Numbered from the stretch's first letter, positions 8,872 through 11,766 are shown. The stretch is DNA of 32,000 nt from Desulfobulbus propionicus DSM 2032 (GCF_000186885.1 NC_014972.1:2160001-2192000), one strand, 5' to 3'. The notes: generated from the sequence alone by a model not told the origin. Made by a program: numbers and translations.

Positions 8872-11766
8872 ATGGCGGACAACGAATTCCAGGGTTCTTC
8901 GGGCAGCAACGAACAGGAGCAGCATCAACAGGCGGTCCGACCGCCGGCTCCGATGCAAGGCGGCCCCTTAGGCGGGATCGATCCCGAGGCCGTTTGCCGA
9001 GTGGCTGCGGGGCTGGCCGGTGAGATCGACCCGGCCCGCGCCACGTTGCGGGTGGTGCTCGATAGCTCCCTGGAACGCGATCTGGGCTTCGACAGCCTCG
9101 CCAAGGTGGAATTGCTCTCGCGCCTGGAAAAGATGTCCGGCCTCACCTTAAGCGAGGAGATCCTGACCCGGGCCGAAACCCTCCGCGACCTCACGCGGGC
9201 CCTGGCACAGGGCACGGCCCACGACCGCGCCGCCATCGATCATCACGGGACCGCGATCGAGCGGGACGAGCAGCGGGCCGGTATCGCCGACCGCGCCCTG
9301 ACTCTGACCGAGGTCCTCCGCCTCCAGACGCAGCGGGCACCCGACCAGCCTCATCTTCTGCTCTACGGCGCCCGGGAGGAGCCGGTGACGGTCAGCCATC
9401 GTACCCTGCTCGACCAGGCCACGGCAATCGCCGCCGGCCTTGAGGCCCTGGATGTGCAACCAGGCGCCAGCGTGGCCCTGATGCTGCCGACCGGCCTCGA
9501 TTATTTCTTCAGTTTCTTCGGCGTGCTCCTGGCCGGCGCCGTGCCGGTGCCTCTTTACCCGCCCCTGCGGCCCTCCCAGTTCGAGGACCATCTCCGCCGC
9601 CATCGCCACATCCTCAACAACTGCCAGGCCCTGCTCCTGATCACCGTGGCCGAGGCCCGTCCCCTGGCCCGTTTCCTCAAGGCGCAGGTGGACAGCCTAC
9701 GGCGGATCGTCACTGTCGAGGAACTGCAGAAGGCGGGCACCGCCTTCACCCCGGTATCCGCCAGCCCGGAGGACACCGCCTTTCTTCAGTACACCTCCGG
9801 CAGCACCGGTATTCCCAAGGGGGTTATTCTCAGCCATGCCAACCTGCTCACCAACATCCGTGCCATGGGCCGGGCCATCGACGCCAATCCGCGGGATATC
9901 TTTGTCAGCTGGCTGCCGCTCTATCACGACATGGGGCTGATCGGTGCCTGGCTCGGCAGCCTCTATCACGGCTGCCAGCTGGTGGCGATGTCGCCGCTTG
10001 CCTTCCTGGTCCATCCCGAGCGCTGGCTGTGGGCCATTCACCGCCACCGGGGCACGCTCTCCGCCGCACCCAACTTCGGCTATGAACTCTGTCTCAACAA
10101 GATTGAGCCGCCACAGTTGGATGGACTCGATCTGAGCAGCTGGCGGCTGGCCTTTAACGGCGCCGAACCGGTGAGCGCGGAAACCATTGCCCGGTTCACC
10201 GACCGCTTTGCCCCCCATGGCTTTCGTCCCGAGGCCATGGCGCCGGTGTACGGCTTGGCCGAGTCCACTGTCGGTCTCGCCTTTCCGCCCTTGGGCCGAA
10301 GACCGCTGATCGACCGGGTGCAACGGCAGCCCCTGCTGGAGCGCGGGCTGGCCCTATCCGCCGGCGAGGACGATCCCCATCCGCTGCGCATCGTCGCCTG
10401 CGGCCGGGTCCTCAGCGGCCATCAGCTGCGGGTGGTGGATGCCAATGACCATGAATTGCCCGAACGCCAGGTGGGCCGCCTGCAATTCTACGGTCCCTCG
10501 GCGACCAGCGGCTACTACCGCAGCCCTCAACAAACCAAGACCCTCTTTCACGGCCAGTGGCTCGACACCGGCGATCTTGGCTACCTTGCCGGACAGGATC
10601 TCTACCTCACCAGCCGGGTCAAGGATCTCATCATTCGCGGCGGCCGCAATATCTCGCCCTATGAACTGGAGGAAGCCATCGGCGAAATCGAAGGGGTACG
10701 CAAGGGCTGCGTGGCGGTCTTCGGCAACGCCGACCCGACCAGTGGCACCGAGAAACTGGTGGTGCTGGCCGAGAGCCGCAGCCGCGACCCCGGGATGCTG
10801 GCCAATCTGCGGGAGCGGATCATTAACCGGAGCGTCGATATCCTCGGCATGCCGCCGGACGAGGTGGTCCTGGCGCCGCCGCACACGGTCCTCAAGACGT
10901 CGAGCGGCAAGATTCGGCGCGAGGCCAGCCGGGAGCTCTATGCGCAGGGCCGCATCGGCCAACCGCCGCGCGCGGTGTGGTGGCAGCTGGTCCGTTTGGC
11001 CGCAGGCGGGTTGGCGCAGCAAGCACGACACAGTCTGCGGCTGGCAGCCTCGACCGCCTATGCCGGAGCCTGTTGGCTGCTGTTTGGCCTGCTCGCCCTC
11101 ACCATGGGCCCGGTTGCCTGTGTGTTGCCGTCGGCCCGAAGCCGCTGGCGGGTTGCCCGTCTCGCCGCCCGCTTGCTGGCCCGTCTCACCGGCACCGGGA
11201 TCATCGTTCATGGCTTGGACCGCCTGCACACCAAAGCTCCGTTGATTCTGGTCGCCAACCACCAGAGCTATCTGGACAGCCTGATCCTGATGGCTGCCCT
11301 GCCGTTGCGGTTCAGCTTTGTCGCCAAGGCGGAGCTGGCCCGGCAAACGGTGCTGCGCCACGCACTTGCCCGGCTCGATGTCGTCTTCGTCGAGCGGTTT
11401 GACTTCAAGCAGGCAGTGGACGATGCCCGACGGCTCACGGAGCTGGCCGCGGCCGGCCGCTCGCTGTGTTTCTTTGCCGAGGGTACCATCTGGCGAATGC
11501 CCGGACTGCACCCCTTCCACATGGGCGCTTTTCTCGTCGCCGCCGACAACGGCATGGAGGTGGTACCGATCACCATTCGCGGCACCCGGACCAAACTGCG
11601 CTCCGAATCCTGGTTTCCGCGTCCTGGCCAGGTCCATTTGTTCATCGGCCCCCGTCTGCGTGGCGAGGGAGTGGGCTGGGAAGCGGCGCTCTCCCTGCGT
11701 GATCGGGCGCGGCAGCAGATCCTCCGCCACTGCGGCGAACCAGATCTGGGAGGAGAAGAATCATGA
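8872..11766 (+). CDS. Tri-functional fusion: N-terminal acyl-carrier domain, fatty acyl-AMP ligase (FAAL), TM helices, and a PlsC/LPLAT-type acyltransferase
   Basis: ATG 8872 follows GGGAGAG (8861-8867); the ORF-track GTG at 8833 is an alternative. The carrier motif is LGFDSLAKVELL, with the Ser codon at 9094-9096. FAAL-type motifs are FLQYTSGSTGIPKGVILSHANL and WLPLYHDMGLIG. The hydrophobic segment is AYAGACWLLFGLLALTMGPVACVL. The acyltransferase HX4D is NHQSYLDS (His codon 11260-11262), plus FFAEGT and VPITIRGT. Confidence 0.85.
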   Translation: MADNEFQGSSGSNEQEQHQQAVRPPAPMQGGPLGGIDPEAVCRVAAGLAGEIDPARATLRVVLDSSLERDLGFDSLAKVELLSRLEKMSGLTLSEEILTRAETLRDLTRALAQGTAHDRAAIDHHGTAIERDEQRAGIADRALTLTEVLRLQTQRAPDQPHLLLYGAREEPVTVSHRTLLDQATAIAAGLEALDVQPGASVALMLPTGLDYFFSFFGVLLAGAVPVPLYPPLRPSQFEDHLRRHRHILNNCQALLLITVAEARPLARFLKAQVDSLRRIVTVEELQKAGTAFTPVSASPEDTAFLQYTSGSTGIPKGVILSHANLLTNIRAMGRAIDANPRDIFVSWLPLYHDMGLIGAWLGSLYHGCQLVAMSPLAFLVHPERWLWAIHRHRGTLSAAPNFGYELCLNKIEPPQLDGLDLSSWRLAFNGAEPVSAETIARFTDRFAPHGFRPEAMAPVYGLAESTVGLAFPPLGRRPLIDRVQRQPLLERGLALSAGEDDPHPLRIVACGRVLSGHQLRVVDANDHELPERQVGRLQFYGPSATSGYYRSPQQTKTLFHGQWLDTGDLGYLAGQDLYLTSRVKDLIIRGGRNISPYELEEAIGEIEGVRKGCVAVFGNADPTSGTEKLVVLAESRSRDPGMLANLRERIINRSVDILGMPPDEVVLAPPHTVLKTSSGKIRREASRELYAQGRIGQPPRAVWWQLVRLAAGGLAQQARHSLRLAASTAYAGACWLLFGLLALTMGPVACVLPSARSRWRVARLAARLLARLTGTGIIVHGLDRLHTKAPLILVANHQSYLDSLILMAALPLRFSFVAKAELARQTVLRHALARLDVVFVERFDFKQAVDDARRLTELAAAGRSLCFFAEGTIWRMPGLHPFHMGAFLVAADNGMEVVPITIRGTRTKLRSESWFPRPGQVHLFIGPRLRGEGVGWEAALSLRDRARQQILRHCGEPDLGGEES

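What the first reader, a model, noticed from the sequence alone, without database searches (positions are those of the whole stretch)
8872..11766. Self-contained ACP-FAAL-TM-LPLAT fusion: a permuted, carrier-containing analogue of Aas
One 965-aa polypeptide carries four parts in order.
- A carrier domain with a DSL phosphopantetheinylation site (LGFDSLAKVELL).
- An adenylating domain with FAAL-type signatures (FLQYTSGSTGIPKGV, LPLYHDMGL), meaning a type that loads a carrier rather than CoA.
- A hydrophobic membrane segment.
- A PlsC-type acyltransferase (NHQSYLDS HX4D, FFAEGT, ITIRGT).

E. coli Aas has the opposite order (acyltransferase then acyl-ACP synthetase) and borrows free ACP. Myxobacterial ElbD-type enzymes add a reductase domain, which is absent here.

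The N-terminal rather than C-terminal position of the carrier relative to the FAAL is also atypical. The architecture suggests a closed channel from free fatty acid to in-cis acyl-carrier to a lysolipid or glycerol-phosphate acceptor.
Basis: partly seen in the sequence, partly recalled or inferred. Interest (0 to 1): 0.7.

Follow-up and report, generated by a model that had tools for sequence, protein, structure and literature searches.

The report
Carrier–FAAL–PlsC fusion lipid enzyme
One gene encodes a fatty-acid activator, its own acyl carrier and a membrane-anchored PlsC-type acyltransferase, and it belongs to a widespread bacterial family that has been noticed in passing but never functionally characterised.

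Summary
Window 8872-11766 (+) encodes a 964-aa protein with three domains:
- a PP-binding carrier domain (aa 57-111, Ser75);
- a FAAL-type adenylation domain (aa 144-695);
- a complete PlsC-type acyltransferase (aa 702-955).

The "membrane segment" is not a separate module. It is the first helix of the PlsC fold's own two-helix membrane anchor, and is probably monotopic.

The carrier serine is invariant in 112/112 diverged relatives. The HX4D motif and the adenylation motifs are conserved.

The architecture is not rare. Full-length homologues occur in at least 80 species of more than 10 phyla. They are named only "AMP-binding protein", and the literature mentions them briefly without a function (FAAL–lysophospholipid-acyltransferase fusions; possibly also the "FAR-less ElbD-like homologues", an identity not tested).

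The gene is usually stand-alone. Only two neighbours recur:
- an Atg22-like MFS transporter (14 loci);
- an acyl-CoA-synthetase-type gene (9 loci, two non-orthologous subfamilies), which in this window is translationally coupled.

Most likely mechanism (inferred, not shown): free fatty acid → acyl-AMP → acyl-S-carrier in cis → O-acylation of a lyso-glycerolipid. This would work like Aas without CoA or free ACP. The acceptor and the physiological role are unknown.

Interest is moderate: a real, testable, uncharacterised family, but the architecture itself is not new.

The parts
8792..8820 (+). Sigma-70-like promoter candidate (TTGACA-17-TATGGT, 10/12), about 50 nt upstream of the ATG.
   Evidence: This is a consensus match only (1 found against 0.6 expected by shuffling). 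Its position favours the ATG at 8872 over the GTG at 8833.
8872..11766 (+). CDS of the 964-aa carrier–FAAL–PlsC-type acyltransferase fusion protein.
   Evidence: P0001 is 100% identical with the same start. A GGGGAGAG ribosome-binding stretch lies upstream.
8983..9207 (+). Carrier (ACP/PCP-like) domain, aa 38-112. The phosphopantetheine-attachment Ser75 codon (AGC) is at 9094-9096.
   Evidence: Pfam PP-binding aa 57-111, 33.7 bits. AF2 helices at 38-52, 75-89 and 104-112. Ser75 is invariant in 112/112 relatives. Codon checked.
9208..9300 (+). Poorly conserved, probably flexible linker (aa 113-143) between the carrier and the FAAL domain.
   Evidence: pLDDT is below 50 for aa 117-133. The alignment columns are variable.
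9301..10956 (+). FAAL-type adenylation domain, aa 144-695. Motifs: A3 308-317, YGLAE 460-464, GD 567-568, hinge D585, catalytic K680.
   Evidence: Motif conservation.
10285..10383 (+). Region of the FAAL-specific insertion (aa ~472-504), between the YGLAE motif and the following beta-hairpin.
   Evidence: About 28 residues are absent from E. coli Aas at this point. The stretch aligns without a large gap to the olefin-synthase FAAL 7R7E. The whole-domain superposition on E. coli FAAL 3PBK spans 554 of 555 columns.
10975..11187 (+). Two-helix membrane anchor of the PlsC-type unit: helix aa 702-751 (hydrophobic core 728-752 = nt 11053-11127), then the Arg-rich helix aa 755-772.
   Evidence: AF2. 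Foldseek aligns 255 columns to the 241-residue T. maritima PlsC 5KYM, which covers that protein's N-terminal helices. Hydropathy. Both flanks are net positive across the family.
11200..11736 (+). PlsC/AGPAT-type acyltransferase catalytic domain, aa 777-955. Motifs: HX4D H797-D802 = nt 11260-11277, FVER R842, EGT 870-872, P899/G904.
   Evidence: Pfam PF01553, 94 bits. TIGR00530, 86.7 bits. 5KYM, E 3e-12. Conservation.
11763..13667 (+). Downstream FadD11-like long-chain acyl-CoA synthetase gene. Its ATG overlaps the fusion gene's TGA (ATGA), so it is probably co-transcribed and translationally coupled.
   Evidence: The same gene pair occurs in the nearest relatives L004, L006 and L008, and in L053 and L066.

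Best explanation
The gene encodes a membrane-associated, self-sufficient "fatty acid to lipid" acylating enzyme.

**Proposed steps (all inferred unless marked)**
1. A phosphopantetheinyl transferase encoded elsewhere converts Ser75 of the N-terminal carrier domain to the holo form.
2. The FAAL domain adenylates a free long-chain fatty acid (ATP → acyl-AMP + PPi).
3. Like other FAALs, it passes the acyl group to the 4'-phosphopantetheine thiol of a carrier, here its own, and not to CoA.
4. The acyl-S-carrier swings on its ~30-residue flexible linker to the C-terminal PlsC-type acyltransferase. That domain sits on the cytoplasmic face of the inner membrane, held by its two-helix anchor.
5. The His797/Asp802 dyad transfers the acyl group to a hydroxyl of a membrane lyso-glycerolipid: lysophosphatidic acid or a lysophospholipid.

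**Net effect.** Salvage or incorporation of free fatty acids into membrane lipid without acyl-CoA and without the soluble FAS-II ACP. It would work like E. coli Aas, but with a built-in carrier, a FAAL-clade adenylation domain and the reverse domain order.

**Possible partners.** In this lineage a co-transcribed acyl-CoA synthetase may feed a parallel CoA-dependent branch. In other lineages an adjacent Atg22-like MFS transporter may deliver the substrate, as LplT does for Aas.

**Shown here:** domain identities, conservation of the catalytic and attachment residues, and the genomic context.
**Inferred:** every chemical step, the topology and the acceptor.
For: **Domains**
- Three domains score above the Pfam cut-offs.
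- FAAL clade: the top NCBIfam hits are FAAL families. The top 18 PDB sequence hits are FAALs or FAAL-like loading adenylation domains, with FAAL-labelled entries at 158-297 bits against at most 114 bits for CoA ligases.
- Foldseek gives TM 0.91 and rmsd 2.6 Å to E. coli FAAL 3PBK over 554/555 columns.
- An insertion is present at the FAAL-specific site.

**Conservation in 112 representatives at 35-54% identity**
- Carrier Ser75: 112/112.
- Adenylation Lys680: 110/112.
- His797 and Asp802: 108/112 each.

**Acyltransferase unit**
- The C-terminal 270 aa model as a complete PlsC, including the N-terminal two-helix motif (5KYM, 255 columns, E 3.8e-12).
- Both flanks of the hydrophobic core are net positive across the family (+2.6 and +3.7). 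That fits a monotopic anchor with both ends in the cytoplasm.
- The carrier-FAAL linker is disordered.

**Context**
- The gene has no conserved ACP, PPTase, PKS or NRPS neighbour.
- An Atg22-like MFS lies next to it in 14 loci scattered over the family's diversity, in both gene orders, and three times with overlapping start and stop codons.
- An acyl-CoA-synthetase-type gene lies next to it in 9 loci, drawn from two non-orthologous subfamilies.

**Precedents**
- Both enzymatic domains are homologous to those of Aas.
- In M. xanthus ElbD, and in a truncation lacking its reductase domain, the ACS and ACP activities were confirmed in vitro (PMC9131029).
Against: - There are no biochemical or genetic data for any member of this family (8 literature searches).
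- The acceptor is unknown. The acyltransferase domain scores below the curated TIGR00530 cut-off (86.7 against 102.95). It also hits the Aas-type and OlsA-type models (62 and 60 bits).
- Block III reads EGTxxR, not the AGPAT-typical EGTR (from the sequence, against my own knowledge of the motif).
- In ElbD no acyltransferase activity could be detected in vitro.
- The hydrophobic core is 23-25 residues, long enough to span the bilayer. If it did, the acyltransferase would face the periplasm and the in-cis transfer would be impossible.
- The model coordinates could not be inspected, so whether the N-terminal carrier can reach both active sites is untested.
- The recurrent acyl-CoA synthetase neighbour hints that acyl-CoA may take part after all.
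- MFS linkage is seen in only about 15% of loci, and not in this window.
Confidence: 0.58

Rival explanations
1. The two halves work independently. The PlsC-type domain is an ordinary acyltransferase fed by external donors: FAS-II acyl-ACP, or acyl-CoA from the adjacent acyl-CoA synthetase. The carrier-FAAL half loads a fatty acid for some other enzyme, and the fusion serves only to tether it to the membrane.
For: - An acyl-CoA-synthetase-type gene is directly adjacent in 9 loci, from two non-orthologous subfamilies. In this window it is translationally coupled.
- The acyltransferase's best matches are generic PlsC/AGPAT.
- The carrier is at the far end of the polypeptide from the acyltransferase.
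Against: - The three-domain fusion is strictly conserved, in one order, across more than 10 phyla.
- No recurrent downstream enzyme that could use the acyl-carrier sits nearby.
- In most loci there is no acyl-CoA synthetase neighbour.
Confidence: 0.15
2. It is an ElbD-type ether-lipid or secondary-lipid enzyme whose reductase is supplied in trans. The acyl-carrier would be reduced to an aldehyde or alcohol, and the acyltransferase domain would act on an ether-lipid precursor.
For: - ElbD combines FAR, ACS, ACP and AGPAT-like domains, and FAR-less ElbD-like homologues are reported in other phyla (PMC9131029).
- Split elbD variants exist that separate the reductase from the adenylation domain.
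- Homologues occur in Acidobacteriota, Entotheonella and Myxococcota.
Against: - The protein has no reductase domain and no unassigned stretch long enough to hide one.
- No NAD_binding_4 (FAR), HAD (elbB-like) or epimerase (elbE-like) gene recurs among 126 immediate neighbours, and none was seen in the window ORFs I scanned.
- Longer family variants carry only the same three domains.
Confidence: 0.08
3. Same chemistry, but the acceptor is not a glycerolipid. It could be, for example, a lyso-aminolipid (OlsA-like O-acylation) or another hydroxylated membrane or envelope molecule.
For: - The acyltransferase domain hits the lyso-ornithine-lipid O-acyltransferase model at 59.8 bits, nearly as well as the Aas-type model.
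- Block III is atypical (EGTxxR).
- The aminolipid review notes that use of FAAL/FACL enzymes in aminolipid synthesis has not been established (PMC11631085).
Against: - The score is far below the OlsA cut-off of 300 and lower than for AGPAT (86.7).
- No OlsB-like N-acyltransferase neighbour recurs.
- The best structural match is PlsC.
Confidence: 0.1
4. Artefact: a mis-assembled or frameshift-fused reading frame, or a decayed carrier remnant with no function.
For: None found.
Against: - An identical protein occurs in an independent assembly.
- The same architecture occurs in 80 species genomes and 10 plasmid or chromid records.
- The serine is invariant in 112/112 relatives.
- The apparent carrier-less hit that was examined (P0234) is simply cut by the end of its contig.
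Confidence: 0.01

Closest known systems
E. coli Aas (2-acyl-GPE acyltransferase / acyl-ACP synthetase), with its partner LplT
   Same: - One polypeptide joins a PF01553 acyltransferase with an ANL adenylation domain that makes an acyl-carrier thioester rather than acyl-CoA.
- Both domains are detectably homologous to those of the query (26% over 288 aa, E 9e-17; 30% over 143 aa, E 2e-10).
- An MFS transporter gene is adjacent: lplT in E. coli, and an MFS in 14 loci of this family.
   Different: - The order is reversed: AT then A in Aas, A then AT here.
- Aas has no carrier domain and uses soluble ACP (established knowledge).
- The adenylation domain here is FAAL-clade, with a ~28-residue insertion that Aas lacks. 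Against the Aas model NF005959 the AT domain alone scores 41.5 bits, where the cut-off is 886, and no Aas-type model is among the top full-length hits.
- The associated MFS is Atg22-like (PF11700) and shows no BLASTP similarity to LplT.
Myxococcus xanthus ElbD (ether-lipid biosynthesis multidomain enzyme)
   Same: - Adenylation (ACS), ACP and AGPAT-like acyltransferase domains lie in one polypeptide.
- In-vitro ACS and ACP activities were shown for ElbD and for a truncation lacking the reductase (PMC9131029).
- The literature already mentions FAR-less "ElbD-like homologues" in other phyla.
   Different: - No FAR/reductase domain.
- No elbB, elbC or elbE-like neighbours.
- Papers list the ElbD domains as FAR, ACS, ACP, AT, and describe a natural split between the reductase and adenylation domains. 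That suggests the carrier follows the adenylation domain in ElbD, whereas here it precedes it.
- Direct sequence comparison was not possible. The ElbD sequence (Q1DC43) could not be retrieved with these tools.
FAAL-ACP loading didomains of PKS/NRPS pathways (e.g. olefin synthase FAAL 7R7E, HapA, NocH)
   Same: - The closest sequences and structures for the adenylation domain (297 bits to 7R7E; TM ~0.9).
- A FAAL that loads a carrier fused in cis (PMC11837247).
   Different: - In those proteins the carrier follows the FAAL and hands the acyl group to a ketosynthase or condensation domain.
- Here the carrier precedes the FAAL and the only downstream catalytic domain is a PlsC-type acyltransferase.
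- No PKS or NRPS genes lie nearby.
PlsC (1-acyl-sn-glycerol-3-phosphate acyltransferase), T. maritima structure 5KYM
   Same: - Best structural and sequence match of the C-terminal 270 aa, including the N-terminal two-helix membrane-anchoring motif.
- HX4D, FxxR, EGT and the block IV proline/glycine are conserved.
   Different: - Only 20% identity.
- Below the TIGR00530 cut-off.
- EGTxxR in place of EGTR.
- Fused to its own donor-generating machinery.
LplT-Aas triple fusions (NCBIfam NF006386 / PRK08633, acyl-[ACP]--phospholipid O-acyltransferase, 1147 aa)
   Same: - They show that transporter, acyltransferase and acyl-carrier-forming ligase are repeatedly brought together.
- The query's AT matches profile positions 429-554 and its A domain positions 778-923.
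   Different: - The order is (N-terminal ~420 positions)-AT-A, with no carrier domain.
- Scores are weak (161 bits for the whole protein against a cut-off of 1221).
- That the N-terminal part is an LplT-type MFS is my own knowledge. It was not tested here.

Membership tests
FAAL (fatty acyl-AMP ligase) clade of ANL adenylating enzymes | Complete ANL core motifs (A3 TSGSTGxPKG, A5 YGxxE, A7 GD, A8 hinge, A10 catalytic Lys). | tested here: met
   All are present in the query and conserved in 104-112 of 112 relatives.
FAAL (fatty acyl-AMP ligase) clade of ANL adenylating enzymes | Closer to characterised FAALs than to acyl-CoA ligases. | tested here: met
   The top NCBIfam hits are FAAL families, all below their whole-protein cut-offs (e.g. 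411 against 600). The top 18 PDB sequence hits are FAALs or FAAL-like loading adenylation domains; FAAL-labelled entries score 158-297 bits, and the best CoA ligase 114 bits.
FAAL (fatty acyl-AMP ligase) clade of ANL adenylating enzymes | FAAL-specific insertion in the N-terminal domain. | tested here: met
   About 28 extra residues (aa ~472-503) relative to Aas at the expected site. The stretch aligns gap-free to 7R7E. The model aligns to E. coli FAAL over 554/555 columns at TM 0.91.
FAAL (fatty acyl-AMP ligase) clade of ANL adenylating enzymes | FAAL-specific helix, blocked canonical CoA pocket, proline-lined alternative pantetheine pocket (Patil 2021). | tested here: inconclusive
   Only the global superposition supports it.
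FAAL (fatty acyl-AMP ligase) clade of ANL adenylating enzymes | Rejects CoA and transfers the acyl group to holo-carrier. | not testable with these tools
   Needs an enzyme assay.
Phosphopantetheine-dependent carrier domain (PF00550) | Profile match above the curated threshold, and a four-helix fold. | tested here: met
   33.7 bits against 20.8. Helices modelled at 38-52, 75-89, 97-100 and 104-112.
Phosphopantetheine-dependent carrier domain (PF00550) | Conserved attachment serine in a (D/G)S(L/I) motif at the start of helix II. | tested here: met
   Ser75 in 112/112; Asp/Gly74 in 108/112; Leu/Ile76 in 109/112.
Phosphopantetheine-dependent carrier domain (PF00550) | Actually phosphopantetheinylated. 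| not testable with these tools
   Needs mass spectrometry of the expressed protein. No PPTase gene was found among the immediate neighbours.
LPLAT / AGPAT (PlsC-type) acyltransferases (PF01553) | HX4D catalytic motif and blocks II-IV. | tested here: met
   H797 and D802 in 108/112. R842 (FxxR) and E870-G871 are invariant in 23- and 81-sequence alignments. P899 in 110/112, G904 in 109/112.
LPLAT / AGPAT (PlsC-type) acyltransferases (PF01553) | N-terminal two-helix membrane-anchoring motif, as in T. maritima PlsC. | tested here: met
   AF2 helices at 702-751 and 755-772. The Foldseek alignment to 5KYM spans 255 columns of a 241-residue target.
LPLAT / AGPAT (PlsC-type) acyltransferases (PF01553) | Passes the curated 1-acylglycerol-3-phosphate acyltransferase model (TIGR00530), i.e. 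LPA is the acceptor. | tested here: not met
   86.7 bits against a cut-off of 102.95. The acceptor therefore stays open.
Aas (bifunctional acyl-ACP synthetase / 2-acyl-GPE acyltransferase) | Domain order AT then acyl-ACP synthetase, with no carrier domain. | tested here: not met
   In Aas the AT is at residues 7-139 and the A domain from ~360. The query has the reverse order plus a carrier domain.
Aas (bifunctional acyl-ACP synthetase / 2-acyl-GPE acyltransferase) | Passes the curated Aas models. | tested here: not met
   NF005959: the AT domain alone scores 41.5 bits against a cut-off of 886. NF006386: the whole protein scores 161 bits against a cut-off of 1221.
Aas (bifunctional acyl-ACP synthetase / 2-acyl-GPE acyltransferase) | Adjacent lplT lysophospholipid transporter. 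| tested here: not met
   No MFS gene lies next to the gene in the window. In 14 homologous loci an MFS is adjacent, but it is Atg22-like and not similar to LplT.
ElbD (myxobacterial ether-lipid multidomain enzyme) | N-terminal FAR-type reductase domain. | tested here: not met
   There are only three Pfam domains. The unassigned stretches are aa 1-37, 113-143 and the two anchor helices.
ElbD (myxobacterial ether-lipid multidomain enzyme) | Adenylation, carrier and AGPAT-like domains in one polypeptide. | tested here: met
   The order relative to ElbD is not verified.
ElbD (myxobacterial ether-lipid multidomain enzyme) | elb operon context (elbB HAD phosphohydrolase, elbE NAD-epimerase). | tested here: not met
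   The window neighbours are a CNNM/CorC transporter, an acyl-CoA synthetase and an unknown secreted protein. No such families recur among 126 neighbours.
ElbD (myxobacterial ether-lipid multidomain enzyme) | Orthology or close sequence similarity to ElbD (UniProt Q1DC43). | not tested
   The ElbD sequence could not be obtained with the available tools. No ElbD-like protein carrying a reductase appeared among the best 270 hits.

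The most novel reading that the evidence does not exclude
The family is an independently evolved counterpart of the LplT/Aas membrane-repair system. A single polypeptide takes a free fatty acid to an in-cis acyl-carrier and re-acylates a lysolipid, with no acyl-CoA and no FAS-II ACP. 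In many lineages it would be served by a previously unassigned Atg22-like (UMF1) MFS transporter acting as the lysolipid or fatty-acid flippase. It would be present in hundreds of species across more than 10 phyla. That would give the bacterial Atg22-like MFS family its first function and define a third route for incorporating exogenous fatty acids, beside FadD/PlsB-PlsC and AasS/Aas or FakAB.
Probability: 0.3. Interest if true: 0.65.

Novelty: new variant of a known kind. Interest (0 to 1): 0.48.

Why it matters
If the inferred mechanism is right, many bacteria own a compact route from free fatty acid to membrane lipid that does not depend on CoA or on soluble ACP. They include sulfate reducers, sulfur oxidisers, methanotrophs, rhizobia, Burkholderiaceae and Acidobacteriota.

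- That bears on how exogenous fatty acids bypass FAS-II, which is relevant to FAS-II inhibitors.
- It bears on the repair of lysolipids in the envelope.
- It bears on how "ElbD homologue" hits are read as ether-lipid markers in metagenomic surveys. FAR-less proteins like this one cannot by themselves make ether bonds.

The family occurs in cultured, tractable hosts, so the hypothesis can be tested directly. Examples: Paraburkholderia phymatum STM815, Methylobacterium nodulans ORS 2060, Cupriavidus oxalaticus, Desulfogranum japonicum, Thiocystis violacea DSM 208.

Tried and rejected
- **Insertion check against the neighbour.** A pairwise alignment of the FAAL domain with the neighbouring acyl-CoA synthetase was uninformative, because that enzyme has its own large insertion. 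The Aas and FAAL-structure comparisons were used instead.
- **Carrier-less variants.** An apparent carrier-less variant (P0234, 825 aa) is cut by the end of its contig. So there is no evidence for a natural split form with a separate ACP.
- **Longer variants.** Family members of 1015-1098 aa were checked for extra domains such as a reductase. They carry only the same three domains.
- **ElbD.** The original ElbD paper is not held, and the ElbD sequence could not be retrieved. ElbD's domain order is inferred only from how later papers list the domains.
- **Literature.** Eight searches found no functional study of any carrier-FAAL-PlsC protein. The supplements of the two FAAL survey papers held nothing further.
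- **573-aa downstream ORF (13746-15467).** It was considered as a third operon member and rejected. It has its own ribosome-binding site and signal peptide, no Pfam hit, and no homologue next to any relative.
- **CNNM/CorC synteny.** Rejected. It is seen only weakly in one other locus (26% identity, 3 kb away).

Full report
**1. The observation**

The window carries an uninterrupted ORF at 8833 (GTG) or 8872 (ATG) to 11766 on the + strand. Three things favour the ATG at 8872, which gives 964 aa.
- It is preceded by GGGGAGAG.
- It lies about 50 nt downstream of a TTGACA-17-TATGGT promoter-like site.
- It is the start of an identical protein called in another assembly (P0001).

Pfam finds three domains, all above the curated thresholds: PP-binding aa 57-111 (33.7 bits), AMP-binding aa 152-549 (234 bits) and Acyltransferase PF01553 aa 777-902 (94 bits). 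One strongly hydrophobic stretch lies at aa ~728-752.

**2. The adenylation domain is FAAL-type**

- The best NCBIfam models are FAAL subfamilies (PRK09192 at 411 bits, then FadD32-type and others). All fall below their whole-protein cut-offs, so the query is not an orthologue of any named FAAL.
- The 18 best PDB sequence hits are FAALs or FAAL-like loading adenylation domains: olefin-synthase FAAL 7R7E at 297 bits, Legionella 3KXW, E. coli 3PBK, FadD32, FadD23, FadD28, plus McyG and a keto-acid NRPS adenylation domain. The best CoA ligase scores 114 bits.
- An AlphaFold2 model of the whole protein (81-sequence alignment, mean pLDDT 79.5) superposes on E. coli FAAL with TM 0.91 and rmsd 2.6 Å over 554 columns of a 555-residue chain. 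No FAAL-specific element is missing at the level of the fold.
- Against E. coli Aas the query has about 28 extra residues between YGLAE and the next hairpin, which is the known position of the FAAL-specific insertion.
- The residue-level CoA-rejection features described by Patil et al. (PMC8460268) could not be checked.

**3. The carrier and catalytic residues are conserved**

An exhaustive HMMER search of 1.84 billion 50%-identity cluster representatives returned more than 100 full-length proteins (about 900-1000 aa). They align from residue ~40-60 to ~960 at 35-54% identity. In a MAFFT alignment of 111 of them plus the query:
- Ser75 is invariant (112/112), within a (D/G)-S-(L/I) motif;
- the adenylation Lys680 is present in 110/112;
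- His797 and Asp802 of HX4D are each present in 108/112;
- the A3, A5, A7 and A8 motifs are conserved.

**4. The "membrane segment" belongs to the PlsC fold**

- AF2 predicts a 50-residue helix (702-751, hydrophobic in its second half) followed by an Arg-rich helix (755-772), directly before the αβ acyltransferase core.
- A separate model of aa 695-964 (pLDDT 86.8) matches T. maritima PlsC 5KYM best. The match has E 3.8e-12 and 255 alignment columns against a 241-residue chain, so it includes PlsC's N-terminal two-helix membrane-anchoring motif. By sequence the same entry is the only PDB hit.
- Across the family both flanks of the hydrophobic core are net positive, +2.6 upstream and +3.7 downstream. 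By the positive-inside rule this argues for a monotopic or re-entrant anchor with both ends in the cytoplasm.
- That topology is also the only one compatible with a cytoplasmic carrier reaching the acyltransferase. This step is inference.
- The acyltransferase is generic. TIGR00530 gives 86.7 bits, below its cut-off of 102.95; an Aas-type model gives 62 bits and an OlsA-type model 60 bits. The acceptor cannot be read from the sequence.

**5. Distribution**

- A scan of one genome per GTDB species gave at least 600 pattern matches. The best 80 are all full-length. They come from:
  - Desulfobulbales, the nearest being an uncultured Desulfobulbus at 80%, so the window is from that group;
  - Gamma-, Beta- and Alphaproteobacteria (Neptuniibacter, Photobacterium, Marinobacter, Thiocystis, Zobellella, Cupriavidus, Malikia, Mesorhizobium, Methylocystis);
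  - Acidobacteriota, Nitrospirota, Actinomycetota, Planctomycetota, Methylomirabilota, Myxococcota, Entotheonella and others.
- Ten plasmid or chromid records also carry it. They include Paraburkholderia phymatum STM815, Methylobacterium nodulans ORS 2060 and Cupriavidus oxalaticus.
- Source annotations are only "AMP-binding protein" or "1-acyl-sn-glycerol-3-phosphate acyltransferase". No NCBIfam model claims the family.

**6. Genomic context**

Gene tables for seven homologues, clustering of ORFs across 88 loci and a Pfam census of 126 immediate neighbours show no conserved operon. No ACP, PPTase, PKS/NRPS, reductase or elb-type gene recurs. Two neighbours do recur.

*(a) An Atg22-like/UMF1 MFS transporter (PF11700).*
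- It lies within 2.2 kb in 14 loci, and directly adjacent in 11 of the 13 GTDB loci (2.2 kb away in L021 and L040). In L093 it sits ~2.7 kb upstream, with the acyl-CoA synthetase gene between it and the fusion gene.
- It occurs on either side of the fusion gene, and three times with overlapping stop and start codons.
- The fusion proteins of these loci are as diverged from each other (median 48%) as random family pairs. The linkage is therefore spread over the family.
- This MFS is not in the window and is not BLAST-similar to E. coli LplT.

*(b) An acyl-CoA-synthetase-type gene.*
- A FadD11-like enzyme (AMP-binding + AMP-binding_C_3) lies directly downstream in the window, with an ATGA overlap, and in its nearest relatives L004, L006 and L008.
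- The same type lies upstream in a Hyphomicrobiales locus and a Methylomirabilota locus.
- A different, FadD-like enzyme (AMP-binding + AMP-binding_C, 28% identical to the window's) lies upstream in three Burkholderiaceae plasmids.
- One of these, Burkholderia sp. JP2-270, has the MFS, the acyl-CoA synthetase and the fusion gene side by side.

**7. Mechanism**

1. The FAAL adenylates a free fatty acid.
2. The acyl group goes to the in-cis holo-carrier.
3. The carrier swings on a disordered ~30-residue linker (pLDDT below 50 at aa 117-133).
4. The membrane-anchored PlsC-type domain, using His797/Asp802, acylates a lyso-glycerolipid.

Support comes from three directions.
- The strict co-conservation of all three domains and their key residues.
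- The stand-alone genomic habit of the gene.
- Precedent: Aas couples an acyl-carrier-forming ligase to an acyltransferase, with domain homology shown. ElbD and its reductase-less truncation showed ACS and ACP activities in vitro (PMC9131029).

The recurrent transporter and acyl-CoA synthetase neighbours point to fatty-acid or lysolipid salvage rather than secondary metabolism. None of the chemistry is shown. The acceptor, the chain-length preference, the role of the acyl-CoA synthetase and the topology are all open.

**8. Comparison with what is known**

- **Aas.** The protein works like Aas but is not an Aas. The order is reversed, it has its own carrier, its adenylation domain is FAAL-clade, and the Aas models fail by a wide margin.
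- **ElbD.** It resembles ElbD in combining adenylation, carrier and AGPAT-like domains. It lacks the defining reductase and the elb context. Judging from how papers list ElbD's domains, and from a natural split between the reductase and adenylation domains, the carrier probably sits on the other side of the adenylation domain in ElbD. I could not obtain the ElbD sequence to test this.
- **Prior mentions of the architecture.**
  - Patil et al. 2021 list "a fusion with lysophospholipid acyltransferases" among unusual bacterial FAAL organisations.
  - FAALPred 2026 notes FAALs in an "LPAT_AGPAT_like" context.
  - A review records FAR-less ElbD-like homologues in other phyla, with no lipid data. 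Whether these are this family is untested.
  - The 2025 FAAL review does not discuss it.
  - I found no functional study.

**9. Verdict**

The claim of an unusual architecture is overstated, because this is a typical member of a large, catalogued but uncharacterised family.

Relative to every characterised system it is a variant: a permuted, carrier-containing, FAAL-driven analogue of Aas, or a reductase-less relative of ElbD.

What this analysis adds:
- family-wide invariance of the carrier serine;
- recognition that the hydrophobic helix is PlsC's own anchor;
- the scattered but recurrent linkage to an Atg22-like MFS transporter and to acyl-CoA synthetases.

Interest is moderate (0.48).

Noticed in passing
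Related loci L021, L023-L026, L032, L035, L040, L059, L062, L064, L068, L082, L093 (e.g. L059:4318-5610, L093:1077-2336): An Atg22-like/UMF1 MFS transporter (PF11700) of unknown bacterial function lies next to the fusion gene in 14 diverse lineages. It occurs on either side, sometimes with overlapping start and stop codons. It is not present in the window and is not similar to LplT.
   Followed up: partly
L090:4308-6083, L092:4173-5831, L093:3254-4912: In three Burkholderiaceae plasmids a FadD-like acyl-CoA synthetase precedes the fusion gene. It is a different subfamily from the window's FadD11-like enzyme (28% identity). Two non-orthologous acyl-CoA synthetases have therefore been recruited to the same position.
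   Followed up: partly
window 13746-15467 (+): A 573-aa ORF with a good ribosome-binding site and an N-terminal signal peptide (MKISYCLVMIAVVLGLGQAVHG). It has no Pfam or NCBIfam hit and no homologue next to any relative of the fusion gene. Probably a secreted protein of unknown function.
   Followed up: partly
Immediate neighbours in related loci: 3 of the 126 neighbour ORFs scanned are alpha/beta hydrolases of the Hydrolase_4 family (PF12146). I recall that this family includes lysophospholipase- and monoacylglycerol-lipase-like enzymes. The count is too low to call an association.
   Followed up: no
window 1558-5101 (+): Three consecutive trehalose genes: a TreT-type trehalose synthase (TreT_GT1 + GT1), a trehalose-phosphatase (OtsB-like) and a GT20 trehalose-6-phosphate synthase (OtsA-like). 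Two routes to trehalose sit side by side.
   Followed up: no
window 18356-23664 (-): A [FeFe]-hydrogenase large-plus-small-subunit fusion (22063-23664) lies beside a multi-4Fe-4S protein (21240-22046) and a 400-aa ORF with no Pfam hit (20041-21243). A radical-SAM/BATS protein (18356-19804) follows, which could be a HydG-type maturase.
   Followed up: no
window 15589-18036 (-): An 815-aa methyl-accepting chemotaxis protein with HAMP, MCPsignal and a C-terminal CZB zinc-binding domain. Similar MCP genes lie near the fusion gene in L006 and L007 (48-53% identity), which may be residual synteny within Desulfobulbales.
   Followed up: no
window 29000-32000: G+C falls to 0.51-0.54 at the 3' end of the window, against 0.58-0.67 over most of it. 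This could be a foreign or RNA-rich segment. Not examined.
   Followed up: no
L078 (contig DATIWG010000050.1): A full-length homologue (44% identity) sits on a contig binned as "Nitrosotalea sp.", which as far as I know is an archaeon. This is more likely a binning error than an archaeal copy.
   Followed up: no
window 5616-7277 (-): A 553-aa protein whose C-terminal part matches the Beta-lactamase2 family. The N-terminal ~370 aa are unassigned.
   Followed up: no
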